Source: Gnetum montanum
Taxonomy: Eukaryota > Plantae > Gnetophyta
Assembly (NCBI GenBank): GCA_015680685.1
Contig: MNCI01002402.1
Location: 186,001 to 250,000 of the forward strand
Direction: 5' to 3'
Length of the DNA: 64,000 nucleotides
The notes beneath the pieces were generated by a model that saw only the letters and a list, made by a program, of their open reading frames with translations, searched no databases and was not told the DNA's origin. The translations under genes and the position numbers were made by a program. Every line of letters starts with the position of its first letter. The stretch's first letter is position 1. Below, in pieces: positions 425-48,839 of this stretch.

Positions 425-3400
425 AGGTATTAAACCTTTCCTCCTAGTGGTGGAGCTTATTGGAGTTATGGCATGGTTCGGGCCTATTGATTCTCATGAA
501 TCGGTACCTGATATGACTATCGATCAAAATGGGGTATGGTTTAGAATGGGTGTTAGCGAGTTCCTTGCCTTCATCTTACAAGGATTCAGTGTGGTAATAT
601 GGTCTCACCTAAGTGAACAATTAGCATGGAGCATCCTTGAGACTATGTTACCAGGATCCTCAAATGGCATAGTGGCCTTCGTGGTTGATGCCGATGAGGA
701 ATTGTTTATAGTTGGGAATGGTCCCTCTGGAGGGCTCAGATCTACCCGTCCATTGTCACATGTATCGGACCTATTATCATGTAGCCCTCACAACATCAAT
801 AGCACCCTATTCCTAGCCTCTCGTGTGCATACTTTGTTCCAGAATCTTCCTGGAACAGTGTACAGGGTAGAAAGGTAAGTTTGTTTAATTTATCATTTCT
901 GCTTTGATACTTAGTAATTGTTCATATTTTGACCATCGTTTCTTTGTAGGCCTCAATTTGATAAATAAGGAGTATGCATAGGTGATGATGGACTCGCATT
1001 GGCTCATACTGCCTTAGAGGCTTTCATGGCAAGTCCCACTCTCTGTGGTGTCGTGTTAGCCCAAACCATGGGTGAAATTGTCCATTTTCACAAATGATAC
1101 TCCAAGGCTTTTGCACAATGTGAGGCTCGGAGGTGGCTACATGGGGATTGGTCCTGTAATGGGCTAGTTTTCCCATCTGACGCTAATTCAGCCTCTAATG
1201 GTTTTAATCCGTTGACCAATGGTAAGTAATAATGTTTTTTTTTGACATCTCATGTTCGTTTGTTTTTCTACCTCATTAGTTGCATTGATTCCATGGTTTT
1301 ACCCTATGTGTATAGTGGATGTCACCCCTGGTGGAGTTACCATCACAACCGGGTGGACTGAGGGCACCTTGGCCATGAAATTTGGGGAGATCAGTGATGC
1401 ACAACAATGGCTGCATGATAAGGCACCACCACATATTATCAGTTGTTTGAGTGATTCTGGCCTCATGGAGTTATTTATTTCTCTAAATCCTAATATCTTC
1501 ATGACCGAGATGATTACGATCGTTGATTCTTTCAATGAAGTTGTTACTTACTATAGCACTCATGTCAAGGGACTTAAAGTAGTTTTGCATCTATCGACAG
1601 AGTTCTTTTCAAACCTCTTCGATGTACAGGCAGATGGGGCTAGAGTGACTTTGGATAAAGTACAAAAATATGTCCATGTTGTTCATGAGCTGGAGGATTG
1701 GCTGGGTGTACTTAAGGGTCCTAAGGGATTTCCTATGCAAAGAAGATCGAAAGTAAATGAAGTAAATGAGTTGTATCCACTGCTTAGAGTGCGAGTGTTT
1801 CCTAAGTCCCTATCCCAAGTGAAGACTTTTGGGATAGAATTTGTGCATATCATGCACATGATTCTAGAGACTGGGGTGTGTTATAATGGGGCTCAGTTTT
1901 TACTTTCATGTTTCCATGAAGAGATAGTGAGATTGCGTTCAAATGTTGAGGCATAGTCCCATTTTACCTTTGCTTTCTTCACCGGTTACTTGCGTCGACT
2001 AGCTGAATTCCTAGTAGTTCATGTGGGTAACGAGTACATGTTAAGGGATCGTGGCCAACTATCTCGCCCATGGATTCGTCATTTTTTTGAAGTGACTGAA
2101 TCTCAAGATGCTCCCGAAGGGATTGATGAATCAGTCTCTATTACTATGAGGGGATCATCTTGTCATTCAATCCATACGCATGATAGCGTAGGATTGGAGC
2201 CAGGTGGTGTGCCCTATACTGCTAGGAGAGCCGATCGAGTAATCAAGGAGACGATCAGGAAGGCAAAATCTAAAGTTCAAAGACCTAAGCGCTCTAGAGA
2301 GGTTGCTCCATCTATCGATGAACCAAAGGTGAAATGCATACAGTTTAAAGTGTCTGCACGTGGTAAGTAAGCCTAATTCATTCATTTATCCTTGTTTTAT
2401 TATTTTTATTATTATATTATTTTTAAATTTTTATTTTTATTCTTTTGGTCATTTATGTTAAACTGATGTTGAACTCATGAATGTCATCAAAGCCAATTCC
2501 TGAAGTAGGAAGAGAGGGGTTAGCACCAATCATAGAGGAGGAAGAGATCCTCACCAACCATGATGAGGAGAATGAAGCAGGTAATGATGAGATGGAAGTC
2601 CCTATCCCTCTGAGGGAAGAAACAAAAGAACAAGTGGGAGATACCATAGAAAAAGATCACACTAATGAATAGGATGAAGTTGACGAGATGTTTGATGATT
2701 TCTTCAAAGGAAGATTAAACCTTGGTGATCCTCCAAATCCTGAAGAAGAAAGGGATTTTGGTATGTTCTCCTTATTATGTTTATTTGATTTTTGAATTGT
2801 TTCATTTCCATTATTTAGAGTTTTTTTTTATGTTTTTTTTGCTACAAGGCAAATATGTTGAAACCAGGATGACTCCTAATGTTCATTCGGAAATACCTAT
2901 GATGAAGACTCCAATGGAAACAACCACTAAAGTTGGTCCATCTTCTACAAATGAACCATTTACTTGGATCAAAATGCCAAGTAAAATGGATTTTGTCCTT
3001 GGTATCGTCAATGAGGTAGTTGATCATATCCAACAAGCTCATCTTGAAATAGGTATATATGCTTTAAGAGTTTTAAGTCTTTCTATTTTTGCATTTGTTT
3101 CTATTGTTGAATGTCTAATGTATATTCTCCTTATATTGATAGCTGCTAAACTGAAGTGGGATCCATCTGAGGCCACTTGTATTGATAGTCTGCTTGAACT
3201 GCCATCAGAAATTGAGCAAGTGCCAAGACAGATTTATGATGAGATGGAAAAATGTGTTGTGCAAAATGCCAAGTCTCTTTGGACCTACAGGCGTTCCATT
3301 GAAAAGCTATGGTTGCAAATTCAGGAAGGGGAAAAAGAGATTGCCAAACTATCAGAAGAGCGAGATGACTTTAAGTCACACTATGATTTTGCCTCTACTA

Positions 3401-4132
3401 GGTTGACGGGTGATCGCTCTTGCCGAACCTTCAAGATTACTTATACCAGATATTGGAATCTATTGAATCGCCAAGTAACTATGACTCAGGAGCTAGCAGA
3501 GTGAAAGGCACAAATTGATTTGTTGAATCGTAAGTATCAGGATTGGAAAGCTTTCGCTTCTAAGGTGCGGAAATGGGACCAAGATGAAAAGAATCATAAC
3601 TACCATTATCAGAAATCATTAAAGGAGATATCCATAGAGAGGCGTCAACTGGAGATGTTTGTAGAGGGGTTAGGCTTACGGTCTTCATTTGATGCCTTTG
3701 CTAGGAACACAGTGGTAGAGCTAGAATCTCCTAAAAGAGTAATTACTACAGTTTCTAGGGAGGTTTCTATAGGTGAGTTTCCTCTTAAACATCCTACTTG
3801 GTCTGCTATGGATAAAGGGAAGGCATTAGCCAATATTGATCTAGTCCTTGATGGAACAAGCTGGGCAAGTGTCCCTAAAGAAGAAATTCTTTATTGGCTA
3901 GAGTTTGGACTAAGAGGATCCTCTTCGGTAAGTCGTTTAAACTTGTTGTAACTTTAATTTGTTTTTAGTAGAAAATGTTACCCTTCTTTTTTTTAGTTAA
4001 TTATTTTCTTTTACTTTTTTACAGAGTCATGGTGATGACGGTGGCCACAAAGATGGCCCTAGTGGAGGGAAAACTCATGATGTAGGGGAATTTGGGGGGA
4101 AAGCCCCTCTTGATCCTGATGTTAGTTTTTGA
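425..4132 (+). pseudogene. Spliced accessory gene of E1, exons 2-8 (425-874, 950-1221, 1316-2362, ~2506-2760, 2849-3052, 3143-3927, 4025-4132); about 1040 codons with a few premature stops
   Basis: GT donors at 875, 1222, 2363, 2761, 3053 and 3928, and AG acceptors ending 424, 949, 1315, ~2505, 2848, 3142 and 4024, flank T-rich 75-145 nt introns. Splicing joins ORF-track pieces 411, 1252, 1990, 2481, 2722 and 3520 into one frame. Homologous exons occur in A, B and H. Confidence 0.88.
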
Positions 4133-4779: not shown

Positions 4780-7700
4780 TCATTTTATGTTAGGAGTGGA
4801 TTTAATGGGTACGATCTGATACTTAGCATCTCCTTCGCTAATTACATTGAATGGTGGCTCTGCCCAAGAGACGTTTGGTGAAGTAGACTCTGAGTCGGTA
4901 TCCTCAGATTTTCCTAGGTTAGGTGGTGTTTCCTTCATTTTAAAGGGATCACAATTTATGGGTTGGTCATTTCTTTGAGTTTCATTTGTTTCCTCTAGCA
5001 TGGGCTTTTCAAAAATTCTGTTAAGTTTATGATCATATGGATTTTCTTCTTCTTCAGGCTCCTCAAATTTCACCTCAGAGCCTTGATTTGGCTCCATGTG
5101 AGATGAGATGGTGGATGTAGCAGCATCCCCATGGATAATGATTTCACCCCCCCTCATAGGGTAAGTGAACCTCTTGATGAATGGGGGAAGACATCACTTT
5201 TAACTAAGCTAACTAGGGTCATCCCAGGATTAGGTTAAAATTAGGCATCTCGTCAATAACCACAAAATCTGCGGATGTGCGGAATCGATCCCCTACTATA
5301 AAATCCAAGGTCAATGTACCTTTAACCACTACTCATGACCCATTAAATGACTTTAGACATGTTGTAGATGTCGGTTTAATTACATCTATAAGCCCTAATT
5401 GTTCAATGATGGGATAAAGTACTACGTTTGTGGCGACTCCATCATCTACATGTACTCGATGTATTTTGAATTGATTAACTCGTATGGTTATAAACATGGG
5501 TGTGTGGGTGACATCAATGATTTTCTCATCGATCCTAATGTTTTCAGGGTGAAAGACTAATGATTTAGATTTCGATCCTTGTCGTGTGGACATTACCGCA
5601 TGTATAGAGGGTTCATTTGTGGGTAGATTTTCGCTAACTAGGATTGATGTTAACATTTGTACTAAGGCTTCACGATGAACTGGTGAAGTTAATATGAGGT
5701 CGTACAAGCTTAATGATGTGTTCTTTTGTTTAAGGGCTTGTGCAACCTATGTTAGGGAATTAGCCAAGTCTTTACCATTGGGTATATTTTTGTCCATGGT
5801 CACTTGATCCATTGGTCCTAACAGTTGTATCTCACATGGGGTAACTTTCGTGTTATTTTTTAACATAACTTATGTTTCATAACTTTCGTGTTATTTTTCA
5901 TGATCCCAATCTTGCGAGTGTTTCTCCATGTTGTGAAGGCTTCATGGGCAGGGGTGTGTATTGAGAGGGGTCTTTTCTTTCAAAGGTTTGCACAGGACCC
6001 GCAGTAGGAGTTTGTGTTGAGGATGGTTCAGGTGTATGTGCAGGAGCAATTCTTTCATAGTTGACAGGGGAAGTAGGTGGTTTACCATGTTATCCCACGT
6101 TAGTATGTTGAGTTTCTGCTACTGCTTCTATGGTTACCTTAGCCTTCTCTTTATCCTTTTTAGTATGTTGATTCTTGAAGGCAGAGTAGGCAGGGTCATG
6201 GTTGTTCTATGTAGCTTCTTCTATGTTCTTTATTTGCATAAAAGCTTGGCTTAGAGTGCGCGCATTTAAATAATACAATTTAGATTTTACAAAATCATTT
6301 ACAACCCCCTTAAGGATGGTAAGTATGTTTTGGGGATTGGTTCATGAAGTTTGTTTAGCACAATGCTCCATCTCTGAATAAATTTTTGGACAGGTTCTAA
6401 GGGTGCTTATTTTACTTGTATTAAACTGTCCAATGTTGCTTCAAGTTTGAGATTATATTTGAATCTGGTAATGAACTGATGTAATAAATCTTCCAAAGAG
6501 GATATGGAATTACGAGGTAATTCCTGGTACCATTCTAGTGCTCTACTAGTGAGAGACATGGCAAACACTCGTAAGATTGCATGTGGCCAGGCCTGAAGCA
6601 ACAAGCACTCTAACCTAAATGTAACCAAGTGGGCGTTGGGGTCCCTTTCCCTATTATATTTTGTTAGGGTGGGTAAGGAAACTCCTTTGGGTAATGTCAT
6701 GGGTGGAACCGAAAAGCTAATTGGATCGTCGTGGTAAAAATCAAGTACTTTGAACTCTTTGTTGTTAGCGACCTTGAGACATTTCACCTCATCTGTTAGT
6801 TCTTGCATCATTTTTCTAGTTTTAGCCCAATCTTGGGCACTCGGTGAGGCGATAGGTTGATTAGGTTGTACAGCGTATACATTAGGTTGTTGTGTAATAG
6901 GTGGGAAGGAAGAAAGTTGAATTGTTGGTGCTTGCACCAGTGAAATATTCATAGTAGATGCTATTAAGGATGGCATGCCATAAGGCATAGGTTGTTGTTG
7001 TTGTTGTAGTTGTTGTAGTTGTTGTTGTGATGGTTGTTGAGTGACTGGAGTGGGCCATTGGCCAACCATGGGCTGTGGAATGGATTGTTGTAACTAGGAC
7101 ACTAGAGTAGGCCATTGCCCAACTATTGGTTGTGAGAGGATGCTTTGCACCATTTGGATGGGAGGAGGTGGTGAAGGAGTGGTGTGGACCTACACTCTTG
7201 GGACAAAATGGGTTGACATGGAGGTAGGCATAATGAAAGGCATCGCTATCACTTGATGCCCAAATATGGATGCGATGGAGGTTTGAGTTGGCAATGGTGG
7301 GGGTTGCATATGAGAGAGTGAGGGTGACGTCCTGATGAGGGGAAGAATGGAAGTGGACGGGTTACTTGCTAAGGAAAATGTAGAAGTAGAAGTTGGGGCT
7401 TCCTGTTGAGAGAGAGGGGCCTGGGTGACGATAGTTTCATGGAGTGGAATGGTTTTCCCTAAGTAGGGGTGTAGCAATGAATTGAATCAGGAGTGAGGGC
7501 TAGGTATGTGATGTGACCTTCCATGTTTGGATTGTGTAGCAAAGTAATCCTCCTCATCCTCCATTTAAGGATCTATAATGGGATGTGAGGTGGGAGGTTG
7601 GCTCCTTTCCAAAAGGAGCTGGGTGATGAGTTCTTAGTGAAATTTTGAGAGTGGAATGATGTCATGGGAGGCAAGGATGAATTCACAACCTCCCTTGTTG

Positions 7701-7969
7701 ATGACTTCATAATGCCTTTTCACATCAAATTTTGTTTGATAAATGGGTAAATTCGCTTGGATCTTGACACATATGAAGTTGTACTATTTGGGGATCAAAG
7801 TGGTGAATGAGAGGTCACAGCCCTATAGTCTCAATGACTGACAAGGTGGCCCCTGAGTGTTTACCTCACCATGAGTCACTATTGGTGTGATGGTGATGAC
7901 AGGGTATGAGACTGATGGGCTGGCATCAAAGATGGGGAAAGTAGAAGTATTGGTGTCAGTAGGGTTCAT
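4780..7969 (-). pseudogene. gag: gag-protease of E1
   Basis: ATG AAC CCT at 7969, a Pro/Gln-rich linker, a retrotransposon gag core (TKYNRERDPNAHLVTF...SLTSRALEWY...FITRF) and a protease-like RVHVDDGVATNVV...FNLILG motif. Stop at 4780. Confidence 0.85.
6990..7040 (-). repeat. (CAA)n microsatellite encoding polyglutamine in E1 gag
   Basis: GTTGTTGTT run; the ORF reads QQPSQQQLQQLQQQQQP. Confidence 0.85.
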
Positions 7970-8029: not shown

Positions 8030-8510
8030 AGCAAAAAAATTTTCTAAGTGTTGTCAACATGTACGGTGTAAACAAGAGAAAAATTTTCTAAGTGTTTTCA
8101 GTGTGTATAGTGCAGAAAACTTTTCTAAGTGTTGTCAGCGTGTATGGCATAAACAAGAGAAAAACTTTCTAAGTGTTGTCAACGTGTACAGCGCAGAAAA
8201 CTTTTCTAAGTGTTGTCAGCATGTACGGCGTAAACAAGAGAAACATTTTCTAAGAGTTGTTAGCATGAATAGCACAAAAAAATTTTCTAAGTGTTGTTAG
8301 TGTGTACAAAGTAAACAAGAGAAAACTTTTCTAAGTGTTATCAGTGTGTAGGGTGTAAACAAGAGAAAACTTTTCTAAGTGTTGTTAGTGTGTACGGCGT
8401 AAACAAGAGAAAACTTTTCTAAGTGTTGTCAGCGTGTATGGTGTAAACAAGAGAAAAATTTTCTAAGTGTTGTCAGCATGTACAACGTAAACAAGAGAAA
8501 AATTTTCTTA
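8030..8510. repeat. Tandem array in the E1 5' UTR, about 12 units of 37-44 bp
   Basis: The unit TTTCTAAGTGTTGTCAGCGTGTACGGCGTAAACAAGAGAAAA is visible repeatedly. Confidence 0.95.
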
Positions 8511-8978: not shown

Positions 8979-8994
8979 CCTCCTTCTAGTGCCA
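8979..8994 (-). promoter_or_regulatory. Primer binding site of E1 (tRNA-Asn type)
   Basis: TGGCACTAGAAGGAGG on the - strand next to the LTR end, complementary to the 3' end CCUCCUUCUAGCGCCA that I recall for plant tRNA-Asn(GUU). Confidence 0.8.
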
Positions 8995-8999
8995 TTTTC

Positions 9000-10719
9000 T
9001 ATACTGTCTGAAATTGTCGGTGCAAGGCTAGAATGGGACAAGCAACAAGAGATCTACAGACAAGCACAGAAGACTCTACCTTCACTCAAGGGCGAGCTGG
9101 AACTGATGAAGGTAAAGTACCTTGGGTGATCCACACATAGATTAGACAAGGATTTCCCAAAAATGTATGCCAATGTGCAATACGTTGGGCTATGTGTAAA
9201 TAGCGTAATAAATGTAAACTAGAACGTAAATGTGTAGTAACATAAACAAAGAGGTAAACAAGAATGAATGAAAGCTATAACAAATCTTGACCAAAAACAA
9301 AGTAATTTTATTGCCAAGTGAAGATTATAGTGCACATGTCCGGACCAGTCGTGGATCTAACACAAGGCAGACGAAGGGCCTCGGTGGATGCTGATGGATT
9401 ATGGTGTGGTGGTTTAGACTACAGGCATAACGGGAAGGCTGTATGATCAACGTGTAGGGGTCAAGTCCAGCATAAAGGGGGGTTCTTCTTCAAAAATCCT
9501 CTTAGCCCCAAAAAGAAAACCAGTATCCCCTCCCCTCCCGCTTAAAAAAAATTGGGATTTTTATAGGTTTTAGGACATGAAATTCAGACTTGGAGTGATA
9601 TGAATGGACATTGGTGAGAAAATTTCAGGTTGGATGGCATGTAGTTGCATTTCCCAAGTGCAAAGGATATTACAACTGTACAGCATGCTACATGCCAGCG
9701 TGTACACGCTGGGCATATGAACCCAGCTTACAAACTTGACCAATACAGAAGAATTGAACTTTACAAATGAACATTACAGTCACAACAGAGAGTCTTGAAC
9801 ATGGCCCTTGGATTTGAGCTCTGGTGTCATGAGAATTCTTCCTGTAGATTTTCAGCTCATTTGGATTTGATCTAATATAGTTTTGAAAGCCTTCAAGTGG
9901 CATACACTGGGCATATACATTGGTGTGCAGATCAGCATGTAGGTTGGCTGAATCATTTGATTGACCCCACTTTTAGTGGTACATGCTGGACGTGCATGCT
10001 GGGCATGCAGAGTATGTATGCTCAGCATGTAGGTCATGGAAGTGCATCATTTCAAGGTTGAATCTTCATTTTTAGGAGCCTGGGATGATACCTGATAATT
10101 GCCTTGCCTATGAGAGTCGATTGTAGGTGGAGATCTTATTATGGGATGCCTATTTTGAGAGATCCTTGATGGTGTACTCGTTTTTGGGAGCCTAGAATGA
10201 TGCCTGATAATTACCTTGCCTCTAGGAGTCAATTGTAGGTGGAGATCTTATTCTGGGATGCCTGTTTTGAGAGATCCTTGATGGTGTACGCTGGGCATGC
10301 ACGCTGGGCGTGCAGGAATGAAAACCCATCATTTGATTTTCAGGAGACTAAGAGCTATTGGAGACCTTGGTGAAGGTCCTGGGGGATCCAGATGCTCAAT
10401 TCTGGCATTTTTTGACTCATTTTTGGGGCCCAAACGTTGCTGCATGCTAAGCTGTATGCTGAGCTGCACACTGGGCATGCAGGCCTATGTGCAAGAAGTG
10501 TACTTAGTCAAAACTGAGTGTTTTGAGTTTGAAACTTGCAGTTCTTATTGCCAAATGTTGACGTAGTCTCCAATGGATCTTGGGGAACTTTTACTTGCTT
10601 TATTCGACTCCATTTGATGCTATTTGTGAAGTTTGCAAGTTTTAGTTATGCTAGGAAGCATCATGACTGAGCTCGATTCTTGTCCGAAAGTGTTAGGTCC
10701 AAATTTTTTTGGTGTTTCA
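9000..10719 (-). repeat. 5' LTR of E1 (about 1.72 kb)
   Basis: Bounded by TGAAACACC (10719) and the PBS. TATA-like CCTATAAAA near 9560. Internal ~90 bp direct duplication at ~10090-10178 and ~10200-10289. Confidence 0.85.
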
Positions 10720-11601
10720 ACTATAAGGGGCTCACCTAGCTATGCAGCATCAAATAATGTATCAAAATCACCCCCATCGAGGTGGATTAACCCCTCTTCT
10801 TCCAACTGTTGGAGGATCTCTACTACTCATGGAGCTTATCTCCATGAGATACCTCCTTCTCAGCCCAAGGGGCTTTGTCTACTATCACTTTGGCTACTAC
10901 TCTTGATCCCTCTCTTCTTTTTTTACAAATAACACAAAGCATAGTACTATTAGCTAATCAACAAAATAGCATGATAAATAACATAAAAAGTTAATATACG
11001 TGCATAAATACAATTAAAGCATCTAGCATCTATGCATACTAATGTGCAACATCCTCATCCAAATCTTGTAGCTTGATGTGGATCTTCTTGCTACTTAGCT
11101 TCATGAACTTGGGGGAAGCCTTCTCTTAAGGTTGTGGCCTCTTGATCTATGCCTTAGATGGTCCCACCATCTCTGCTATATATTTATTCATCTCATGTAC
11201 ATCCCTAGTGCCAACTGGAGGACCCTTACCTACACTATCGCATGAATAGTACGAGTGCTCCATAGGAACCTTGGTCATTACTGACAATGACTTATCAATT
11301 TCCTCTAAGGGGTCCTGTATAGGTGTGGTCAAAAACATATGTTTGAATCATAACCTAGACAGCTACTCATGTTCCTACACCACCCATCAGCCATCATCCT
11401 ACATGACCAAAAGCTTTGCAAACCTTCGTAGGTATCTCATGAAGAACACAAAGTGCATGTGGGACCATGCCTGCAGATTGAACCGCAATCTAGAAATATC
11501 TACATGCAACCCAATGGCTATGTACCTAGCCTAGTTAAACCTCATACCCACTAGTAGCACCTCCTTCATCACCTATGCCTACTCCACCCCTAGGATCTTA
11601 C
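10720..11601 (-). pseudogene. Accessory gene of H, fragment (3' part of exon 4 and part of exon 5)
   Basis: ORF 11147-11338 (YSCDSVGKGPPVGTRD...MVGPSKA) is homologous to ORFs 29376-29738 and 1990-2370. Confidence 0.85.
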
Positions 11602-12129
11602 TGTAGTGACAGAAAACGTCGATGGCTGGAAACACCGAGAGGTCTTCAATCGTGACAGTCTTAACCCTCCCTCCCCCCACCCCCTCCCCCCCTTCTCCTC
11701 TTCTAAAAAAAAGGGGGTCGTAGAGGTATTTATAGGTTAGGGTTAGCCAAAAATGTGAATCTAGTGCTATGTGGTAGTGTGGTAGGTAACAATGTGTAAC
11801 AGCAAGTAATAGCGCATAACAGTGTGTAACAACATAGCATAATAGGGTGCTATGCTATGCTACGCACTGTAGCAGGATGCTACGCTAGCACTATAGTAGG
11901 GTGCTATGCTAGCACTGTAGCAGGATGCTATGCTACATAGTGTAGCAAGGTGCTACACTAGCACTGTAGCAGGGTGCTATGCTATGGTATGCTACGCAGC
12001 ATAGCAGAGTGCTACACTATGCACTATAGCAAGGTGCTACGCTAAATAGCGTAGCAGCATGTAACAGCATGTCACACTTAGCCATATTTGCAGTTGCGAT
12101 GCCAAGACCTAAAATTTTAAGGTATTTCA
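11602..12129 (-). repeat. 3' LTR of E2 (528 bp, internally deleted)
   Basis: Matches 16073-16138 and then ~16637-17242. PPT GCCCCTTTTT at 12133-12142. Confidence 0.9.
11840..12060. repeat. ~21 bp tandem repeat in the E2 3' LTR
   Basis: Units of TAGCAGGRTGCTACGCTAGCACTG. Confidence 0.9.
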
Positions 12130-13249
12130 ATGGCCCCTTTTTGTTGATGTTTGAAGGAGTGGCCCAAGAGATGTTGAAAAATAATTACAAAACACCACAG
12201 TAGACATGTCACCAACATCATTTTTCAACACAAGATTGGATGTCATCTTACCATGCTCAAGAGTGTTATGGGAATAAGGTTATGTTAGGGGAGAAGGGGT
12301 ATAGGAAATTCTAGGGAGATGAAATTTAAATGATGGAAATGAAATGCAAACATTGGATCATGATGTAAGATGCAAATTTAGCATGGTTGATAGTGACCAT
12401 GGCATGAAGTAGCTTGCCCTTGAAACATTGACCTCTTGTTGGAGTGTTTATGAGAGCATCAAAGTTCATCCAAGGATGGGCCAATTGCACAGCTATAGCA
12501 TTGTTGCTCTTTCTTTTTTTGTGTGAGGCAAACCTTCTTTGGGTTTTGCTTACTACTGAATGTTAGCTACAAGTTGGCCATTGAGAAGATGGACTTTGTT
12601 TCCTAGGGATGATTGATGTTACATCAACCTAGGCTTTGAATATGCAATAGAGTCACCCCATAGGATGAATTGTGTTACATCAACAATGGGTTCTACGATT
12701 GATATGAAGAGGATGCCATGTGTGTCACAGTGCATATGCATCAAAGGAGTGTGAAATCATAAGTATGAGGAGTATGAGAGGATATTGGGATGAATGAATG
12801 GATGTCCATAGGCTGTAATAGGGATGAGGGGGGTGTGCACTCTTGATTGGCTCAACTAGTCTAGTTATCCACATCAAAGCAACGTGATAACCTACTGTTG
12901 CGATGAAATGCACCTGTAGATGACCATCTCCAAGGCTTCATCCTACAAAAACAACTCAGAGAGGACAAGAAAACTACAAAAAATGAAATGCAAGTGCAAA
13001 TGCTAGATGTGAAGATGATACAAGTGCAAAACTATGAATACTCTGCGAGTGCAAAACTGTGAAGACACTGCAAATGTATAAAATGTTGTGCCAGTCAAAA
13101 GTGCTCAAGAAACTAGTGAAGGTGCCAGAGCAGTGATGCTGCAAGTGTTCTGAATGCTGCACTAATGGCAAGTGCTTCAAAAGAATCACTAGAATGGTGG
13201 GAGGCAATGATGCTCCTAGGGAAATGGCAAGTGTTTGGATCAGATGAGC

Positions 13250-13535
13250 TACATGCCAGTTTAAAGTCCTGGTAGACTATGAACCTAGTTTAAGGTCCTG
13301 GTTGACTGTGATGTGCTAGTTTATAGTCCTAGCAGACTGTTGGATGCTAGTTTAATGTTGTAGCAGATAGTGACTATTGTGCCAGTTTAACATCATGACC
13401 CAAGGATGAGCTATTGTGCCAGTTTAGCGTCATGACCCAAGGATGAGTTATGCCAGTTTATAGTCATAGTGGACTATCTATGCTAGTTTAAAGTCCTAGT
13501 GGACTATCTATGCCAATTTATAGTCATAGCAGATT
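13250..13535 (-). repeat. TAAACTAGCA tandem array (post-integrase position) in E2
   Basis: About 10 units of TGCYAGTTTA(A/T)(A/G)GTC(C/A)T(A/G)G...GACT on the + strand. Confidence 0.88.
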
Positions 13536-13851
13536 GGCGCTTACCTTGCTTGTATAAGGTGCGATGTTGCATGCGTAGTCATGTTGTGTGTCTACAAAAT
13601 CTTGTAAAAATCAGCCATAAATAAAATAGCATCAAGCAACACCTATTGTAAACAAGGTTAAAATGGATGAATGAAAGAAAAGTAATGCAAAAAGTGGTAG
13701 TTTTAGGCCGTTCCAGGCTGTAGGCTAGTTTAAGGCCTTTTTGGGCCATCTATTTTTGTAGTTTTATGTTTTATAGTTTTTATGTTTTCATATGTAATGA
13801 TGGATGTATAAAAAAAGTAAAATAAATATGCAAAAAAAATGAAATGTTGAT

Positions 13852-15707
13852 CTATGTAAGTAGGAAAAATGTAAAAGCGTAGGCTAGTGCTATGTAAATG
13901 AAAGTCAAAAATGCATGGGCATTGGAGGCAAAGGATAGGCAAGAATTTGGCACATTTTTGGCCAAGGGAAAGTCTTGGTCATGTAGTTGCTCCCTAATCG
14001 AGCATGGATTAGGGAGTGTGTAAGGCTTAGGATCCTCTGGGAGGTTGTTAGCTTCAATCACTCACCTAGCTATGTTAGCTTTAGGTGCTGCATTGGTTGT
14101 TATAGGTGTACTACCAAGAAACTCTTCTTCTAAAAATTGTGCCATGCCTATGTTGTGGATACTTGAAGATGAAGTGTTATCACCATGGATGATAACTTAA
14201 CCATGTTCATATGGAAGGTGGATTTCTTCATCGATGGGAGAGGAGATGGCACATAGTTGAGCTAGCCAAGGCTTTTCTAGAATCATGTTGAACCTAGCAT
14301 CTCTTCTATGATAGTGAAATATACATTAGTGGGGAATTACTCTCCTATGAAAAAGGCTACGTTGATTATACCCTTGACTGTGGCACATGATCTGTTAAGG
14401 GATTTTAGACATGTGGTTTTTGTTGGCCTGATTTCATCTGCTAGGCCTAGCTTATCAATGATGAAGTACAATACTACGTTTGTTGCTACACCATCATCAA
14501 CATGTACCCTGCAGATGGTACATTGTCCAACATGAATGCTAATGGATAGTAGATCTGTAGTAACCTCCCCTCATGCGCGGTTGAATTTGACTGCATCATC
14601 TTGAAAAGAGAGAGATGTTGAACCCAATTCTTGCAGTGTAGGGGGTAACATCATTGCACATATAGATGCCTCATTTGTACGTATGTCCTCTATAATACGA
14701 ATGAAGGCTAAGCTCTTGGCCAATGCTTGGCAGTGAGAAAATGAAGTCATGACTAGGTCGTACAAGCTCAATGTTGTGTTCTTTTGTTGGGCCTCAGTTG
14801 GGAGAGTTAGAGGTGGTACCATGGGACTTATGGGATCATCTTGGTAGAAGTCCACCACCTTAATGGTCTCAGAGGAGGTAGCCTTAAGTTGGTTGATCTC
14901 CTCCATCAAGCTTTGTATCAGCTGGAATGTCTGATCCAAGCTTGGGGGTATGCCAGCTAGTCGCATTGGCTGGGCTTGGGTTGGTTGCATAGCATAGGGT
15001 ATAATTGTTGGTTGTCGAGTTTGCCAATTTAACATCATAGCAGATGGATGTTGCCAGTTTAACGTCATAGTAGATGATTGCTGATGTAATAGCTGAGAGA
15101 TGGGTGTGGTGATTGGAGTGGGCCACACATGGATGGGTTGGACGAGCACTGTAGACACCAATGAGATAGGTGGGATGTAGGATGCCTAAGTTGTTTGGAG
15201 TTGGGAGGTGGCCCCTGCATGAGCATGGTGCTAGGCAAATGCATTAGTTGCTTGCGAGGAAGGATGAATTGGCATGGTCACTATCTTGGGGGGGATGGAT
15301 GGATGAAACCGAAGAGGGGCTGTACCAGGGAGTGGTTGTTGGAAGATAGTGTGGAGGTGGCTCGCGTGTTCGAAGTAGGCCTCAAACTCATCTTCCTCAT
15401 TCTGTGAGGCTTCCTCATAGGTTATCCCTGCATTATGCCTATTTGCACAGATGAGTTGGGACAACAACTAGTGGTAGGACTCTGTGAGTGGGATTATGTC
15501 AAACAAGGAGGGATTATACTTCCAGATGTTTCAGTGGACTCTTTCGTAGTCATGTTTTGCCTCTAGATCGAGGTAATCCACTGGTAGTCCTGATTGAATT
15601 TTGACACAAACAAAGTTGTATTTTTTTTGTCTTAATGTGGCATGCTTTGGCTGTATTGTGGTATCAAATGTGTTAGACACAAACGTGGAAGGTTGATCTA
15701 GATTCAT
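13852..15707 (-). pseudogene. gag: Internally deleted gag-protease of E2 (gag N-terminus fused in frame to the pre-protease region)
   Basis: ATG AAT CTA at 15707 and a YNFVCVKIQ motif. ORF 14571-15161 joins DFYQDDPISPMVPPLTLPT directly to EAQQKNTTLSLYDL. RVHVDDGVATNV is near 14490. Confidence 0.82.
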
Positions 15708-15739
15708 GTTCACAAATCAGGTTGTGAGAGTTTCTATTT

Positions 15740-16045
15740 GCAAAAAAAATGACTAGGTCTATCGGTAGTAGGAAAATAGCAAAGAAATGATTAAATCTCC
15801 CAATAGGAAGAAAATAGCAAAGAAATGATTAAATCTTCCGGTAGCAGGGAAATAGTAGAAAAATGACTAAATCTGCCAATAGCAGGAAAATAGCAGAAGA
15901 ATGAATAAATCTACTGGTAGCAAGAAAATAAAAGAAAAATGACTAAATCTATCGATAGCAGAGAAATGGCCAAGTACGAAAATGTAGAAAAATGGCCAAG
16001 TCTGAAAATGCAAAGAAAATGCTAAGTATGAAAATGTAGAAAAAA
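15740..16045. repeat. ~33 bp tandem array in the E2 5' UTR
   Basis: Units of AAATGACTAAATCT..CRRTAGCAGGAAAATAGCA. Confidence 0.85.
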
Positions 16046-16049
16046 CAGG

Positions 16050-16066
16050 CCCTCCTTCTAGCACCA
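16050..16066 (-). promoter_or_regulatory. PBS of E2 (tRNA-Asn type)
   Basis: TGGTGCTAGAAGGAGGG on the - strand, 6 nt from the LTR end. Confidence 0.82.
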
Positions 16067-16072
16067 AAAAGC

Positions 16073-17242
16073 TATAGTGATAGAAAACGTTGGTGGCTGG
16101 AAACACCGAGAGGTCTTCAGTCATGATAGTCTTAACCTTGGATCCGTGTGAGGGCTATGCTAGATAAAATAGAAACAGGGTGCCCTAAATACTCTAGTTG
16201 ATCAGACAGGGACTTAATCGATATATAATAACCCTTTTGTAAACAATAAAAGAAAATGCAATGTGCACAATAGTAGAAATGTGCTAAAGTGTGTAACAAG
16301 GTAGTGAACATGATTTAATGCTTAATAATGCCAAATAAGTGCTATGATCAGCCAAAAAGAGAGTTTGAATAGAAAGATACACCACCTTGAAAAAGGGTAC
16401 AGGTATACAAAGTCTACAATAGGCACAGTAGGAGTAGAATCACAGCCTCGGTGGTGTCGGGCTGTGAAATTTCATGCTTATTGTGATAAATTGTGCCACC
16501 TAGGTCGATGGTCACAGTATATCATGTGATGTACTTGTGCCTCTCTGTCAGGTCTCGTTCACCCACAGAGCTAAGTGCAATAATGCTAAAATGCCAAATG
16601 CCAACTACTTTTTTTCGGTGAAGAAATTGAAGCCTCACCCCCTTCTCCTCTTCTGAAAAAAAGGGTCACAAAGGTATTTATAGGACTATGGTTAGCCCAA
16701 AATGCAGATCTGGCACCACATGGCAGTGCGGTAGGTAACAACGTGTAACAACAAGTAATAGCATGTAACAGTGTAGCGTAATGGGGTGCTATGCTATGCT
16801 ACGCACTGTAGCAAGGTGCTACGCTAGCACTGTAGCAGGGTGTTATGCTTGCACTATAGTAGGATGCTACGCTAGCACTATAGCAGGATGCTATGCTGGC
16901 ACTGTAGCAGGATGCTATGTTGGCACTGTAGCAAGGTGCTATGCTAGCACTGTAGCAGGATGCTATGTAGCGTAGTAGGGTGCTACACTAGCACTGTAGC
17001 AGGATGTTATGCTAGCATTGTAGTAAGGTGCTATGCTATGCTATGCTACGTAGCATAGCAAGGTGCTATGCTACACACTGTAGCAAGATGCTACACTAGC
17101 ACTATAGCAGGGTGCTACACTATGCTACACTATGCACTGTAGTAAGGTCCTACGCTATGTAGCGTAGTAGCACGTAACAGTGTGTAAAAATTAGCCATAT
17201 TTGTAGTTGCGATGCCGAGACCCAAAATTTTGTGTTGTTTCA
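16073..17242 (-). repeat. 5' LTR of E2 (1170 bp) including a ~21 bp tandem repeat at ~16785-17170
   Basis: Both termini match the 3' LTR. TATA-like CCTATAAATA at ~16676-16685. Confidence 0.9.
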
Positions 17243-17882
17243 CTTACCTTGGGAAAATAGCTTTGGAAAGGCATGAGCATAGAATAGAGGGTAGAGCTTT
17301 CCTAGCTCAGGCACTTGCACATCTTTGATTAATATGCCTTTGTGAGATAGAGTGGCCTCCAACCAATTCTTAATCTCCTCTCTAGGGTCTGCTTCCCTAC
17401 TGGCCTTGTTGACAATAATCGAGTCATCAATAGGGATGCTAAAGAGAGCAATGAAAAAGGCCTTTCTAAGGTCCAGCATTATCATCATGTTGTGCATCTA
17501 AGTGATGAACTACCTAATGCTGCTACTAAAGAAGTCAATGATGATGACCATTTTGGCCATTAGGATACTTGGACTAAGGGCCAATAATAGGACCACTAGC
17601 CCAACATGCATGAGCTAAACCATCAATGCATCAGGTGTTTTATGACATAGCCAGTGTTATGCACCCTCTACATCCCTAAATTTCATGATGATGATGGACT
17701 TTGTATGACCTATGGTGACCACTGTGACCTTAGTTGAGGTAAACACCATTGTAACATAAAGAAAAACAACATTAACATCATGTTAGTGAGGAAAACTAAA
17801 GGGTATATATATAAGTGAATAAGTAAAAGAACATAGATATGCACATGGCATGAATGGAGTGTGTGATGGGAGTGGTGCTACT
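17243..17882 (-). pseudogene. Accessory gene of H, fragment (end of exon 3, intron 3, 5' part of exon 4)
   Basis: ORF 17240-17497 (LDLRKAFFIALFSIPIDD...LYPLFYAHAFPK) is homologous to ORFs 1252-1956 and 28797-29207. Confidence 0.85.
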
Positions 17883-25785: not shown

Positions 25786-28700
25786 ATGATGCACCAAAGT
25801 TGATGCCTACACACCAGATTAGTAAATGTGGATGAGGGGGAATGGGAATTGGGTCGTCTACCATGGGCACGCATGAAAGAGAGGAGGGCATCACTCTTTA
25901 CCAAGTACCCCAACTATGCTTCCCCACCCCCTTCTTACCATTTTTTTGTTATTTTGTTTACTGCACTTGAGGGTTTGGGATGTAACCTTTGTTGGTGTCC
26001 TATCATGGCAGGGGTCACCACCACCATGAGCCATTTTGACCACCGTAATAGGAAGGGAATGTGTTGGAAAGGATTTTATTTTCTAGGAAGAACAAGGGTT
26101 TTTCTTTAATGTAGGATTGGTAATGGGCATGCATAAGGGAGTAGTAGTCTTGGCCATGATTGATTTTATGTGTGGAAGGATTTCATGGTGGCTGCAACTG
26201 CTGCAACAGACAACACAACCACAAGAGGGAAGGCCACAGGCTCCCATAGGGGCTACACATAGGACCGTGGATGTAGGTGGGACTCACTTGCTATGGGGAG
26301 GATTTTTCTCTACAAAAATATTTATTTTCAAATTTTTTCTATTTTATGACATAGTGGGTAAGGGCAAGTTAAGGATCAGAGCTTTGGCAGCAATCCTAGG
26401 ATGGCCAACCACATGCACGGGGTTAGGGATGCACAACAAGGATCTAAGAAATTTCTTTTGTTCAAGATTTTTTTCAATTTTTTGGTGCAAGGTAATGGAA
26501 AGGACTCTAGTGACTATTGATGGTAGCTTGTGATAGAGCCAGGGGATGATAAGGATTTTCCCATGTGATTTCTTATTTTCCAAGGGAAAGAAGATGTAGG
26601 CTAGGGCTAGGCAAGTTTGGGATGACAAGGGTTGTAGGGGCATTGTGCCCTGTAGCATAGCTATGTAGCTGCAAGGGCTAGCTGCAATGCCAAGGGCATG
26701 TTTCTACTATTACTTTTTCATTTTTGGATTTTGGACAAAATTCTTGTGTAGCAACAAAGTGGGGCAGAGTCATGGTGCAAGGCAGTGCCATCGATGTGGG
26801 CAACATGGCCACAAGGACTATAGCTAGGGTAGATGTTAGGAAACATGACTACAAGGATGGTGACCATAGTAGGCACCCAGCAGATACTTCTCCTCATGAC
26901 AGTGGAGGATGTAGGGCACTCAAGATGTAGTGGGATAAAGAAAGTAGTAGGTAGTGCATGGCATCATGGTAGTGCACTATGCGATATAGAGAGTGTTGGG
27001 ATAGTGGCCAAACCTTGGTTATCACTAGCCATGACTACGACTACACTCCCATATTAGAGGCACAGTTGATGCCAAGTTTTTGAAAAAATGGCATCTTCCC
27101 AATAATTAGTTTTTTTTTTTGTGACTATGCTCTATGGAGAGCGTAGCCAGGAGTTAGAATTTATTGCAACCTAGGACTACACTCTTCAAATTTCTTGAGT
27201 GTAGTCAAGGTGATATAGAGTTAGAAAAAATTATGCTATTTCTAGACTATGCTTCCTATTGGGGTAGCCTAGAATTAGAATTTTCTTGTAACCTTTCTGA
27301 ACTACACTACCTAGAGTTAGAAACATTTTGAAAAATTTTGTAATTTGAAGCTAAGCTTGTAAAATGTTATAATTCCAACAATGCTAAGCTTGTAACAATG
27401 CTAAAGTTATAGACTACAATGATGCCAAATTGCTAAAACATGCAAACTATAATGATGCTAGTGATGCTAATCATGTGAACCATAGCGATGCTGAAAACTG
27501 TAAAGATTGCAAACTGTAATGATGTTGAATGTGTGAACTAATGTAAAACAAGATGCTAATCCTATGCAAAACATGTTGTACCCTAATGAGTACCAGTCAC
27601 ATCAAATGTACTAGTTGACATCCTATACCTGTTGGGCCCAAAGAGCATTAAAATATTTTTGCTAATCATTGCTATGCTATGCTAATTTTGCTAAGCTTAA
27701 TTTAATATATTTTTCTCAATATTTTCATCTAATTTATGTATACTAACACTTTGATTTTTGCTTTTGCAGTTGCATGGTGCTACTAAAACCCATCCTAGTT
27801 GTTGTGGAACTTGTGGGAATTCTGTGCTACATGAGCAAGCCTATTCCTAACATGTCTATTCTAGATATACATGTGGGCCATTTGGCAGTGTGGTTCCAAT
27901 TGGGGGCACACAAATTCTTAGAATTCATACTACAATACTTTAGTGTGATGATGTGGTCACACTTAGTGGTGGAGGCTAGCAATGCCATCACAAAGACATT
28001 GCTACCTAGGGCTAACTATGACATCTTAAGGTTTATGTTTGATGAGCCCACTACTAGTGATGATAGAGTAGGTTGTTCAGGCAGAGGTCCCAAGGATGCT
28101 CAACCTTTATCTAGGACTTGGCAAATGGCAAGGTTTAGTTGCTACAACAAGAGAAACATCATCTTTGTTGCTATGCTTATGCACACTTTGTTTCAAAACC
28201 CACTTGGAATTATCTATTGTGCAAGATAGTAAGTGCTCTTATAACTTTCACAGTGTGTTCTTACTATAGCTCATGCTATGTTTGCTAACTCGTCATGTTT
28301 TTTGCCAAATTTAGAGTTGATGAGTGGGGCCTACATGATGAGAAAGATGCTCTAGCCATAATCCTTACCTCCCTAGAGGTATTCTCCTCTTGCACAAATG
28401 TTCAAGAAGCTATGCTCAAGTATGTGGGATCTAATCTAGGGGCCTACCCCACCTAGTACCTAAGGGTGTATGAGTAGTGTAAGACCCAAGACTTGTTAGA
28501 TGAGAAGTGGGCTACTTGTAAGCTCAACATGGAGGAGATGCTTGCATCACTGCCTCCATCTAACAGTTTGTTTGTACAAAATAAGAATTTACTATTTTCC
28601 TTTTATGCTCACTCACATCCTCATTGATTTGCCTTTGCCTAATCCCAACATTATTTTATCTTGGTTGCAATGGTAGTTGCCTTGGGCAAGGTGATGGTTG

Positions 28701-31363
28701 TTACCATAGGCAGGCCACACTAAATCCAACCTCACCATGAAATATGGTGATGTAGAGGGTGCATAGCATTAGTTATGTCACTAGACCTTAAATGAATTGA
28801 CCACTAGTCTCACATGTGCTAGGTTGATGGACCTATTCTTGGCCCTTAGCCTAAGCATTCTGGTGGCTAAAATGGTCGCCATCATTAACTCCTTCAACAA
28901 CGATGTCAAGCATTTTCTCACACGGGTGTGCAGTGTGAAAGTAGTGCTAGACCTTAGCGAGGCCTTCTTTGCTAACCTCTTTAGACTTCCTACTGATGGC
29001 CCATTTTTCATTGTTAAGACTAGCAAGGAGGTGGACCATAGAGAGAAGATTGAGGGTTGGTTGGGGGCCACCAAACTCACAAGGGAATACCCATCAAGGA
29101 TGTGTTGGTGCCTAAGGTCTAAGAGCTCTACCCTCACTTTCATGCTCGTGCCTTTTCAAATTTTCTCTCCCAAGGGAAGATCCTTGGGGTGGAGTAAGCA
29201 TAGGTGATGAAATAAGTGCTATTGGAGGATGAAAGATTCAACTAGGCTACTTTCATTGCTATGGGATTACATGTAGAGATCACCAGATTGTAGTTCAACC
29301 TCCAAACAAGATCTCACATTCACTTTGCATTCTTCGCAGGATATTTTTGAAGGTTCTTAAAGCTCTTGGTGGTACATGATGGTGGGTGATGGGTGGTACA
29401 AGACTGTGAGTAGCTATCAAAGCCATGGATCAAACATATGTTTACAACCACTTGTGTGTAAGACCCCCCTAGAGCATATCGATGAGTCATTTTCAGTAAC
29501 GATCAAAGGTCCTATGTGGTGGTCACATTATTCATGTGATAGTGTAAGAGAGGGTCCCTTAGTTAGCACTAGGGATATCAATAAGAAAAAGTACTACATT
29601 GTAGAGACCATGGGACCATCCAAGGTAAAAATTAAGAAGCCATGCCCCATAGAAGAGGAAACTCCTGAGGTTAGATGGATAAGTGGCAAGAAGATCTGGT
29701 TTAAGCTTCATAGTTTTTACATGGAGGTTGTAGGTTAGTATCTTTAACTTAGATGCATTTATTGTGCTAGTGTATGTTTCTATTTTATCCTTTTTGTACT
29801 ATATTATGCTAATGTACTAATGTATACTTATATGTCTGTAAGTTGGAGAAGAGAGGGCTACCGAAGTAGTGGCAAAAGCAGTAGTAAGGGACATGTCCCC
29901 TCAAGCTAAGAAGAGGGATGCCCATAAGGATGAGTTACATGATGCCACCGAAACCCTCCAGTAGTTTGATAATGGGCTGCTACATCCTACCAAGGGTGAT
30001 TTTGATTGTATATTTGATAACATGCAGCTAGGTGACCCCCCTGCTGTTATGCCTAAGGTTCTACTAGGTGAGTATCCTGGATTGCCATCTATTGTTGCTC
30101 TATTGCTCTAACATCTTTGGCTATTTGATTGCATGTTGATTACATTGTTGTGCTATAGCCTTAGCTATGCCTACCAATAGTTGAATGTCTACCTACCACA
30201 TTAAGCCATGGGTAGACATGCCCCATAAGTTTAACTTCATGGAAGGCATTGTGAAGGACATGGTTGACCCCCTACAACAAGTAGATCCTAAGCTCAGTAT
30301 GTGCATGATGTTGCTTTTCTTATGTTGCTTTACCACTTGAATGCTCAATCTATGGCTAAGGTTGATTTGCTTGTTACATGCTAACAAGTTCCAAGCTTCA
30401 CTAGGCTTCGAGTAGGGTGGCCAAAGTTAACATCATCCCTAAGTTCCCTCCTAAAGTGGAGTAGGTGTATGGTTGTACCTATGAGGCAGTCAACAAATGC
30501 ACACTTTCCTATGAAAAAGCATTATGGATCTATAGGTGCTCAAATGAGCACTCATGGAAGTATGTGCATGAGCTCTAGGAGAGGGTAACAAGCCAAGACA
30601 TAAAGATTGGGGATCTTTAGCCTTGATATGACTTTCTAGTAGCTTGGTCATAGGGAGATAGTACCTGGTAGACTACTAAGATAGATTATGCTAGGTATTG
30701 GTTAGCCATCTGGGACAAAAATGAGGCTACTCAAGAGATTATTGATCAACAACTATAGATGGGTCTACTCACACAAAAGAACTAGTACTAGAAAAAAAAT
30801 AGCACTAAAGTATACTAGTGGAGGAAAACTTAAAAGAACCACAAGAACCACTACAACTATGAGCATGACATGTACCTTCAATGGTATAAAGAGGAGTCTA
30901 TTGAATGCCATCACCTTGAGATGTTCCTTGAGGCAACTAGCAAGAGACATGACTATTAGTTGTTTTCCTGACATACAATGATGAGTGGTTCTCCTAAGAA
31001 ATATATTGCCACCCCTTCAAAAGAGACTTCATCTACTACATTCTCCATGGAGCTACCTACATGGACCATCATGAACAAAGGCAAGACCCTTGCAAGGGTT
31101 GACTTTAGCCAGGAGGATTGGACGTAACTATCTAAGGTTGTAATCCTTCGACATTTGGAGGATGGCATTTATAGACTACCTCTAGATGTGGTTGATGTAG
31201 GGCCCTCTCAGGTTAGTTTTTCATTTGTTTTATTCTTTTTCATGCTAGTTTATATTCATTTTTTTTTGCTATTTTGTGGTAGTAGACACTAGGAAATGTT
31301 GTAGGCCCTAGTAGCACCACAAAGGAAGAAGTGCCTCCACCTCGATCTAGTATCACTAGTTGA
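25786..31363 (+). pseudogene. Spliced accessory gene of A, 8 exons
   Basis: Exon 1 at 25786-25904, exon 2 from ~27769, donors at 25905, 28229, 29734, 30068, 30297 and 31212, stop TGA at 31363. ORFs 27774, 28797 and 29376 are homologous to the E1 copy. Confidence 0.85.
27340..27560. repeat. Degenerate short tandem repeat in intron 1 of the accessory gene of A
   Basis: Recurrent AAACTGTAAYGATGCT / GCTAAGCTTGTAA units. Confidence 0.55.
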
Positions 31364-31594
31364 GCATGTTCTAATGCAACCCTACTATTGGGAATTTTTA
31401 CATTTGTTGTGTAATTTTTGCTACATGATGTTGATGCTCACACTGTGTACTATTATTGTTGTGAAATGTAATGGATGCATTTACAATGTAGAGTGTGTAA
31501 CTTTTGTGATTATTTTCTATGTATTTATTATGTTGATGTTGTGATGAATTGATGTGCTAAGTTATGATTGCACAATGATGCCATTGTAAGCCCC

Positions 31595-48796: not shown

Positions 48797-48839
48797 TATG
48801 TAGCACATCTTGACAAAGCAAGGTGGTAGGCACCTCTAG

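What the first reader, a model, noticed from the sequence alone, without database searches (positions are those of the whole stretch)
1316..2100. Exon 4 resembles a plant mobile domain (PMD) or plant-transposon-protein fold, followed by an acidic linker and a coiled coil
Seen: conserved blocks across copies: I(V/I)xSF...(F/Y)xTxVxGxxVxLxLS/NxxFFxxLFx(L/I)PxDG, then LYPL...FPK, then (R/C)(F/Y)N(W/G)Axxxxxx(L/F)HxxI, then FAFFxGY(L/F)RR. Exon 5 is acidic and exon 7 is heptad-like (EKEIAKLSEERDDF). Known: PMD proteins (PF10536, MAIN/MAIL1 relatives associated with Ty3/Gypsy and Mutator elements) have TITLEDVxxLLGLPxDG and YxWGxAxLxxLY blocks. Inference: this is a very divergent member of that group or of the Transposase_32/ATHILA-ORF-like domains, and so possibly a chromatin or anti-silencing factor. 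The resemblance is by eye only.
Basis: inference. Interest (0 to 1): 0.72.

Follow-up and report, generated by a model that had tools for sequence, protein, structure and literature searches.

The report
Backward gene inside retrotransposon gag-pol gap
A family of plant jumping genes carries a conserved eight-exon extra gene, written backwards in the gap between its protease and polymerase genes, whose protein likely joins a disabled phosphatase domain to a likely transposon-type chromatin domain and a coiled coil, and would help the element escape host silencing.

Summary
Bases 1316-2362 are exon 4 of a spliced-looking gene present in all four Tat-type Ty3/gypsy elements of the window that keep this region. 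It lies antisense, in a 5.4-7.0 kb gap between gag-protease and RT-RH-aRH-INT (both sides seen in two elements). Synonymous sites are saturated while pN/pS is 0.31-0.57, so the protein was under purifying selection; all four copies are now broken. The PMD/Transposase_32 identity could not be shown: no Pfam, PDB or 1.8-billion-protein match, and the fold model was too poor to test. It stays likely (about 0.65) from motif pattern and from known Tat PMD-coiled-coil ORFs. New here: exon 2 weakly matches the FCP1/NIF phosphatase family (E 0.0012, under cut-off) and lacks the catalytic aspartates in all four copies. Exon 5 is acidic and exon 7 heptad-like mainly in copy A. Splicing was not seen in six RNA runs. 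The papers read list extra ORFs only 5' of gag or 3' of pol. The scan noted this layout before on other DNA of this genome. Best reading: an element-encoded nuclear accessory factor, probably anti-silencing. Verdict: new variant of a known kind.

The parts
425..874 (+). Copy A exon 2: FCP1/NIF-like HAD domain, likely catalytically dead
   Evidence: Pfam PF03031 E 0.0045, 0.0012 on a fragment, 19 bits against cut-off 21.8; four-copy profile's only PDB hit is UBLCP1, E 0.22; E-L-hydrophobic in place of DxD in 4 of 4 copies
950..1221 (+). Copy A exon 3; two in-frame stops (966, 1095); probably the end of the HAD-like domain (inferred)
   Evidence: AG/GT ends; stops; weak match to copy E; no Pfam match
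1316..2362 (+). Copy A exon 4: about 265-residue conserved hydrophobic domain (the finding), then a basic tail (K+R 20%) that may hold a nuclear signal; stop at 1954
2479..2760 (+). Copy A exon 5, acidic linker (D+E 33%); 5' boundary uncertain, stop at 2670
2849..3052 (+). Copy A exon 6, short conserved block at its 3' end
3143..3927 (+). Copy A exon 7, coiled-coil-like segment and conserved C-terminal blocks; stop at 3502
4025..4132 (+). Copy A exon 8, short last exon
4783..7969 (-). gag-protease of element A (decayed), ending in a stop and not running on into RT
   Evidence: Retrotrans_gag E 0.0024; matches to C, D, X; protease motif named from recall, no Pfam hit
8031..8508 (.). 44/81-nt tandem array in the 5' leader of element A
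8979..8994 (-). Primer-binding-site-like 16-mer of A; the same at 53345 and with 2 mismatches at 16066
9000..10719 (-). 5' LTR of element A (approximate ends); A is inserted in exon 5 of copy B
10720..17882 (-). Copy B of the gene (exons 3-5 in part), split at 11602-17242 by element X
   Evidence: 5-bp target duplication on both sides of X
55075..55850 (-). Copy E (exons 2-3): the 5' part of copy B, cut off by the insertion of element C (17883-55074)
   Evidence: its pol lies at 57586-61350 on +
27770..31400 (+). Copy C of the gene, between protease (33164-32641, -) and pol (from 25209, -)
40640..44412 (-). Copy D of the gene with a short ATG exon 1 (eight exons), between protease (39015-39484, +) and pol (from 45325, +)
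39934..45306 (+). Candidate gag-pol intron of D: donor-like site after protease, acceptor-like site 20 nt before an in-frame pol ATG
   Evidence: same 9-mer donor in C and D, same 10-mer acceptor in C, D and E; splicing not shown
45325..48800 (+). pol of D in the order RT, RH, aRH, integrase
   Evidence: Pfam RVT_1, RT_RNaseH, RVT_3, Integrase_H2C2, rve

Best explanation
This is exon 4 of a conserved eight-exon accessory gene carried antisense between gag-protease and pol by an early-branching Tat retrotransposon family; its protein likely joins a dead FCP1-type phosphatase domain, a likely PMD/DUF1985/Transposase_32-like domain, an acidic linker and a likely coiled coil, and would act in the nucleus as an anti-silencing factor for its own family. 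Shown: position, orientation, exon layout in four copies, purifying selection, pol domain order. Inferred: the gene keeps its introns because they face away from the genomic RNA that is reverse-transcribed; it has its own promoter near the start of pol; the whole gap is removed as one large Ogre-like intron or pol has its own transcript; the exon 4 domain binds element DNA or chromatin, perhaps the tandem arrays; the coiled coil oligomerises it; the dead phosphatase domain binds phosphorylated partners such as the Pol II tail without acting on them. Odds by step: element-borne gene under selection 0.97; dead FCP1-like domain 0.75; PMD-like fold 0.65; anti-silencing role 0.4.
For: Four of four elements that keep this region have the gene at the same place and strand; gag-PR and pol are both seen around C and D, gag-PR only for A, pol only for B/E. 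GT-AG introns at matching places in A and D. pN/pS 0.31-0.57 in all 9 pooled pairs, bootstrap upper limits at most 0.68. The gene diverges faster (36-37% identity, A against C and D) than gag (57-58%) or protease (50%), as a host-conflict factor might. 13,903 contigs of one DNA run lie on 4.6 kb of copy A, so the family has many copies. NIF hits in two copies and UBLCP1 as the only PDB hit. [quoted passage not shown]
Against: No profile match of exon 4 to any PMD-group family in Pfam at E up to 10; the only hit was DUF7763 in one copy (E 0.012-0.064). No relative among 1.84 billion proteins at E 0.001 or in the word search. TITLEDV absent in 4 of 4 copies. NIF score is under the cut-off, copy D gave no hit, and the exon 2 model came out all-helical, unlike a HAD fold, at pLDDT 35. 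The heptad and acidic signals are weak in C and D. No spliced read of any intron in six RNA runs. No functional data; fast divergence also fits relaxed constraint. The Pélissier preprint says DNA binding by PMD is itself not yet shown.
Confidence: 0.45

Rival explanations
1. The gene is a real accessory gene, but exon 4 is an unrelated orphan fold and the protein serves replication in another way, such as particle assembly, nuclear import, or control of gag-pol splicing and RNA export.
For: All sequence searches are blank; extra ORFs of plant elements fall into hundreds of unrelated groups (PMC6317226 passages); the gene sits inside the region whose removal would make pol.
Confidence: 0.25
2. 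The fold is PMD-like, but the protein is a transcription or integration helper: it tethers Pol II or the integration complex to chromatin and does not remove silencing marks.
For: FCP1-like domain points to the Pol II tail (family function recalled); basic tail and coiled coil; nuclear roles of this kind are proposed for antisense ORFs (PMC7264820 parts 1-2).
Against: No direct evidence; the only TE protein of this predicted fold group with a tested role in the papers read is VANC, an anti-silencer (PMC5735166 abstract).
Confidence: 0.2
3. It is a captured host gene or a DNA-transposon remnant riding along, useful at most as a source of antisense RNA.
For: Introns and an FCP1-like domain suggest DNA-level capture from a host gene or a Mutator-like element; all four copies are broken; in one run the reads over gag lie on the same mate strand as those over the gene.
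Against: Selection on the protein lasted until synonymous sites were saturated between subfamilies; gag and pol of these copies are equally broken; no host homologue found.
Confidence: 0.07

Closest known systems
Tat lineage III (gymnosperm) and V antisense PMD or PMD-coiled-coil eORFs; lineage IV (Ogre) 5' sense PMD-CC ORF (PMC4408406)
   Same: Tat host element, antisense extra gene, globular domain followed by a coiled coil
   Different: Here the gene is between protease and RT, not 3' of pol or 5' of gag; it has seven introns and an N-terminal FCP1-like domain; no Pfam PMD match
Ogre elements (gag-PROT and RT-RH-aRH-INT split by an intron, on average 274 bp; PMC6317226)
   Same: gag-protease apart from pol; aRH between RH and integrase; donor-like and acceptor-like sites at the ends of the gap
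   Different: Gap is 5.4-7.0 kb and holds a whole gene; RT falls outside the angiosperm Ogre-containing clade in a quick tree, nearest Ginkgo and Cryptomeria rows
Retand/Grande antisense ORFs with TRP28 (PF04195) and coiled coil (PMC11963269, PMC7264820)
   Same: Antisense, family-wide, next to tandem arrays; Grande gene23 has its own promoter and is nuclear
   Different: Those lie between pol and the 3' LTR; no TRP28 match here
VANC (DUF1985) anti-silencing proteins of VANDAL transposons; host MAIN/MAIL1 with PP7L, and MAIL3 (PMD-PP7 fusion)
   Same: Proposed working model: PMD-like domain, tandem-repeat targets, pairing with a phosphatase domain
   Different: VANC is on DNA transposons; MAIL3's phosphatase is PPP-type, not HAD-type; no sequence or structure match was obtained here
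FCP1/NIF HAD phosphatases (PF03031; UBLCP1, PDB 3shq)
   Same: Weak profile match over the motif I to motif IV region
   Different: Catalytic aspartates absent in 4 of 4 copies; score under the family cut-off

Membership tests
PMD (PF10536) | Pfam score above cut-off | tested here: not met
   No hit at E up to 10 in 7 alignment rows or 10 exon-4 fragments, one of them in the wrong frame
   Absent in 4 of 4 copies at the aligned place
   Partial: P in 2 of 4, D in 4 of 4, G in 2 of 4; (F/Y)N(W/G/stop)A in 4 of 4
PMD / DUF1985 (VANC) / Transposase_32 fold group | Structural superposition | tested here: inconclusive
   Model pLDDT 36.7; best Foldseek E 0.44; best Z 4.8 on unrelated helices; no library of predicted cellular structures available
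Transposase_32 (PF20167), ATHILA (PF03078), DUF1985, Transposase_28 (PF04195), DUF7745 (PF24924) | Pfam score above cut-off | tested here: not met
   No hit
DUF7745 (pea Ogre ORF) | Profile-profile similarity | tested here: inconclusive
   P0101 holds only positions 219-341 of 341; hhalign probability 0.3% on another region
FCP1/NIF phosphatase (PF03031), exon 2 | Pfam score above cut-off 21.8 | tested here: inconclusive
   19 bits, E 0.0012 in A; 13.4 bits in C over profile 3-76; none in D; UBLCP1 E 0.22
FCP1/NIF phosphatase (PF03031), exon 2 | Catalytic DxDx(T/V) and motif IV DD (motifs recalled) | tested here: not met
   E-L-(I/V/L) and A-x at the matching places in 4 of 4 copies
FCP1/NIF phosphatase (PF03031), exon 2 | HAD alpha/beta fold | tested here: inconclusive
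   Model pLDDT 35.4, all-helical; no Foldseek match
Tat clade of Ty3/gypsy | Additional RNase H (aRH) besides RH | tested here: met
   RT_RNaseH then RVT_3 then integrase in D; matching parts in C and E
Ogre | gag-PROT apart from pol; aRH between RH and INT | tested here: met
Ogre | RT inside the Ogre clade | tested here: not met
   Outside the 44-row clade (SH-aLRT 97) that holds pea Ogre; quick tree only, 63 selected rows, decayed window rows on a long branch
Ogre | Splicing of the PROT-RT region | tested here: inconclusive
   Conserved donor-like and acceptor-like sites; reads were laid only on A, whose pol is outside the window
TatII / TatIII (gymnosperm) | aRH before RT (TatII) or after INT (TatIII), per PMC6317226 | tested here: not met
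   aRH lies between RH and INT
Anti-silencing factors (VANC-like function) | Sequence-specific binding and loss of silencing marks | not testable with these tools
   Needs bench work

The most novel reading that the evidence does not exclude
An undescribed gymnosperm-type Tat lineage has turned its protease-RT intron into a 5-7 kb cassette for an eight-exon antisense gene that fuses a captured, disarmed FCP1-type phosphatase to a PMD/VANC-like DNA-binding domain: a retrotransposon's own anti-silencing module that reads family-specific tandem repeats and grips the phosphorylated Pol II tail, converging on the host's PMD-phosphatase module.
Probability: 0.2. Interest if true: 0.85.

Novelty: new variant of a known kind. 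Interest (0 to 1): 0.63.

Why it matters
What the extra ORFs of plant LTR elements do is a long-open question. This family adds a position not listed in the surveys read (inside the gag-pol gap), an intron-rich gene that ORF-based annotation would miss, and a domain with a guessable partner (an FCP1-like pseudo-phosphatase). If the PMD-like and anti-silencing readings hold, it would be a retrotransposon counterpart of VANC and might help explain how such elements fill very large plant genomes. It also shows an Ogre-like split of gag and pol outside the angiosperm Ogre clade.

Tried and rejected
No whole genome was held. Exon 4 searches, all blank: Pfam, PDB sequences, 1.84 billion representatives, word search at 53-464 residues (longer forms not searched for exon 4), metagenome and viral contigs, 84 fetched loci and 120 fetched proteins by local profile (best E 0.07 and 0.05), earlier findings by sequence. 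Exon 2 word search for longer proteins: none. Exon 7 against PDB: only weak hits, E 0.39 or worse. Both fold models were under pLDDT 37, so carry no information either way. The protein atlas could not read these sequences. No RNA holder was listed. Six RNA runs of one species label gave low depth, mostly from diverged copies and T-run artefacts, and no GT-AG joint: expression and splicing stay open. Strand bias seen in X12 was not repeated in X13 or X14 and also covered gag, so it was not used. Attempts to get family members for a profile-profile test failed: NIF absent from 2 genomes and 14 controls; pea DUF7745 only partial; extra ORFs of the fetched outgroup elements gave no Pfam family and the one compared did not match. 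No tRNA gene. Rejected: ordinary host gene (tied to elements in four of four cases); true Ogre (tree, gap size); TatII or TatIII (aRH position). The careful tree did not finish.

Full report
What is at the coordinates. Bases 1316-2362 (+) are one exon between AG and GT sites. Its 349 codons hold one stop, at codon 213. It belongs to a gene whose exons 2-8 run from 425 to about 4132; six of the seven acceptors and all six donors are canonical, and the exon 5 acceptor is unclear. Copy A has 5 stops in 1,011 codons examined. Three more copies lie in the window: C (+, about 27770-31400), D (-, about 44412-40640, with a short ATG exon 1, so eight exons) and B/E (-), one element cut in pieces by later insertions. 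C, D, B and E carry 28 stops in 666 codons, 34 in 766, 14 in 351 and 10 in 149, mostly TAG; CpG is depleted in C and D (o/e 0.10 against 0.40 in A). That fits methylation-driven decay, with A the least decayed.

Is it more than chance? Yes. Exon 4 copies are 29-41% identical to A. Codon comparison over exons 2, 4 and 7 gives pN/pS 0.31-0.57 in all 9 pooled pairs, bootstrap upper limits 0.42-0.68; between A and the others pS is 0.72-0.84 (saturated) and identity by codon position is about 0.50, 0.65, 0.35. The acidic exon 5 (33% D+E) and the heptad in exon 7 (0 of 60 shuffles) are clear in A and weak in C and D (19-21%; 8 and 13 of 60).

Setting. The window is a nest of LTR retrotransposons. 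Element X (11602-17242) has a perfect 5-bp target duplication and splits exon 4 of B. Element C (17883-55074; LTRs 78% alike; target sites differing at two places) splits exon 3 of B/E. D lies inside C, and A's 5' LTR starts in exon 5 of B. In C and D the order is gag, protease, the gene on the opposite strand, then RT, RH, aRH, integrase. A shows the gag-protease side only, B/E the pol side only. The gap is about 5.4 kb in D and 7.0 kb in C. The same 9-mer donor-like site follows the protease in C and D (2 matches in the window; none in A's gap), and the same 10-mer acceptor-like site precedes an in-frame pol ATG in C, D and E (3 of 4 matches in the window). One DNA run has 13,903 contigs on 4.6 kb of copy A at 85% likeness, so the family has many copies; the tool's depth is not a copy number.

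Lineage. The RT profile's best 120 hits are plant Tat-type polyproteins at 37-51% identity. In a quick tree of 63 selected rows (3 window, 50 of the 120 hits, 10 outgroup loci; the careful search did not finish) the window RTs sit outside the 44-row clade that holds pea Ogre and nearest to Ginkgo and Cryptomeria rows; decay lengthens their branch. PMC6317226 (passages read) gives aRH before RT for TatII, after integrase for TatIII, and between RH and integrase for angiosperm Ogre and Retand. So this family has the Ogre layout without falling in Ogre.

Exon 4's family. Every test was blank: Pfam on whole exons, alignment rows and fragments, PDB sequences, 1.84 billion representatives, word search, contig scans. 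AlphaFold2 on six rows gave pLDDT 36.7 (43), so the fold searches say nothing. TITLEDV is absent; LPxDG-like and (F/Y)NW-like blocks are partly kept, about 87 residues apart. By eye the run helix, helix, two strands, helix-LPxDG, helix-FP, NW-helix, helix resembles the PMD/DUF1985/Transposase_32 pattern, but that pattern is recalled, not tested. The prior is favourable: PMC4408406 (passages and sections 6 and 11 read) reports an antisense PMD ORF in gymnosperm Tat lineage III and PMD-coiled coil in lineages IV and V. I put the shared fold at 0.65 and do not file it in PF10536 or PF20167.

Exon 2. This is the best domain lead. Pfam NIF scores E 0.0045 on the exon, 0.0012 on a fragment (19 bits, cut-off 21.8), 0.06 in C with profile positions 3-76 covered, and nothing in D. 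The four-copy profile has one PDB hit, the FCP1-family phosphatase UBLCP1 (E 0.22), aligned through the W-S motif and ending just before the expected motif IV aspartates (motif roles recalled). All four copies have E-L-hydrophobic at motif I and A-x at motif IV, so the loss predates decay. The two hits are not independent, and the low-confidence model (pLDDT 35, all-helical) does not support or test it.

Expression. No RNA holder was listed. Six RNA runs of one species label (2% or 26% of each read) gave low depth over the exons, mostly from reads under 95% alike, and no GT-AG joint. Splicing and strand are not shown.

How it would work. Antisense orientation lets introns survive reverse transcription; placing the gene in a region that is spliced out of, or skipped by, the pol message keeps gag and pol intact (inferred; Ogre splicing as summarised in PMC6317226). 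The protein would enter the nucleus by its basic exon 4 tail, oligomerise by the coiled coil, bind element DNA by the exon 4 domain and hold phosphorylated partners by the dead FCP1-like domain. Support by analogy: PMD is predicted to resemble VANC's DUF1985 domain (10.1101/2024.09.27.615353, passages; PMC13547354, section 10 and passages); VANC targets form tandem repeats (PMC5735166, abstract only), and these elements carry subfamily-specific arrays; PMD pairs with a phosphatase domain in MAIL3 and MAIN/MAIL1-PP7L (PMC7156037, passages; the word 'inactive' was not found there). The gene diverges faster than gag and protease. None of this is a functional test; overall confidence 0.45.

Novelty. 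The surveys read place extra ORFs 5' of gag or 3' of pol (PMC6317226 passages; PMC7264820 parts 1-2 of 3; PMC11963269 part 1 of 5; PMC11728184 passages). Searches listed no paper whose title or opening lines describe a gene in the protease-RT gap or an FCP1-like domain in a retrotransposon; most listed papers were not opened. Steinbauerova 2011 and all supplements were not seen and may bear on this. The scan noted the same layout on other DNA of this genome (e1-10288023, unchecked note). Verdict: new variant of a known kind, interest 0.63.

Noticed in passing
window 11602-17242 (element X, -): Short derivative with part of gag and the protease but neither the extra gene nor pol; tandem arrays lie after protease, before pol and after integrase in the longer elements, so deletion between arrays may have made it.
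   Followed up: partly
window 35557-35678: Only about 120 bp of D's 5' LTR remain; no PBS match within 3 mismatches was found for D.
   Followed up: no
window 25921-27686: About 1.7 kb in C between pol and the gene that has no counterpart in D; content not worked out.
   Followed up: no
window 55919-57365: Spacer between copy E and its pol has no translated match elsewhere in the window.
   Followed up: no
window 4130-4800: A lacks the donor-like 9-mer seen after the protease in C and D; poly(A) reads of one run skip 4734-5048 at non-GT-AG ends (36 reads), probably a deletion variant.
   Followed up: no
window 8031-8508, 15743-15966, 52857-52973: Each element has its own 5'-leader tandem array (44/81, 38, 28 nt units), rich in runs of A.
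   Followed up: no
L003:4694-7933, L010:7515-11096, L014:5675-8230, L019:6958-9885, L022:5301-8471: Intact gypsy elements from metagenome contigs carry large sense frames (850-1,200 codons) behind pol with no convincing Pfam family.
   Followed up: partly
L081: A plant-type gypsy polyprotein sits on a contig of a cyanobacterial MAG, most likely host contamination.
   Followed up: no
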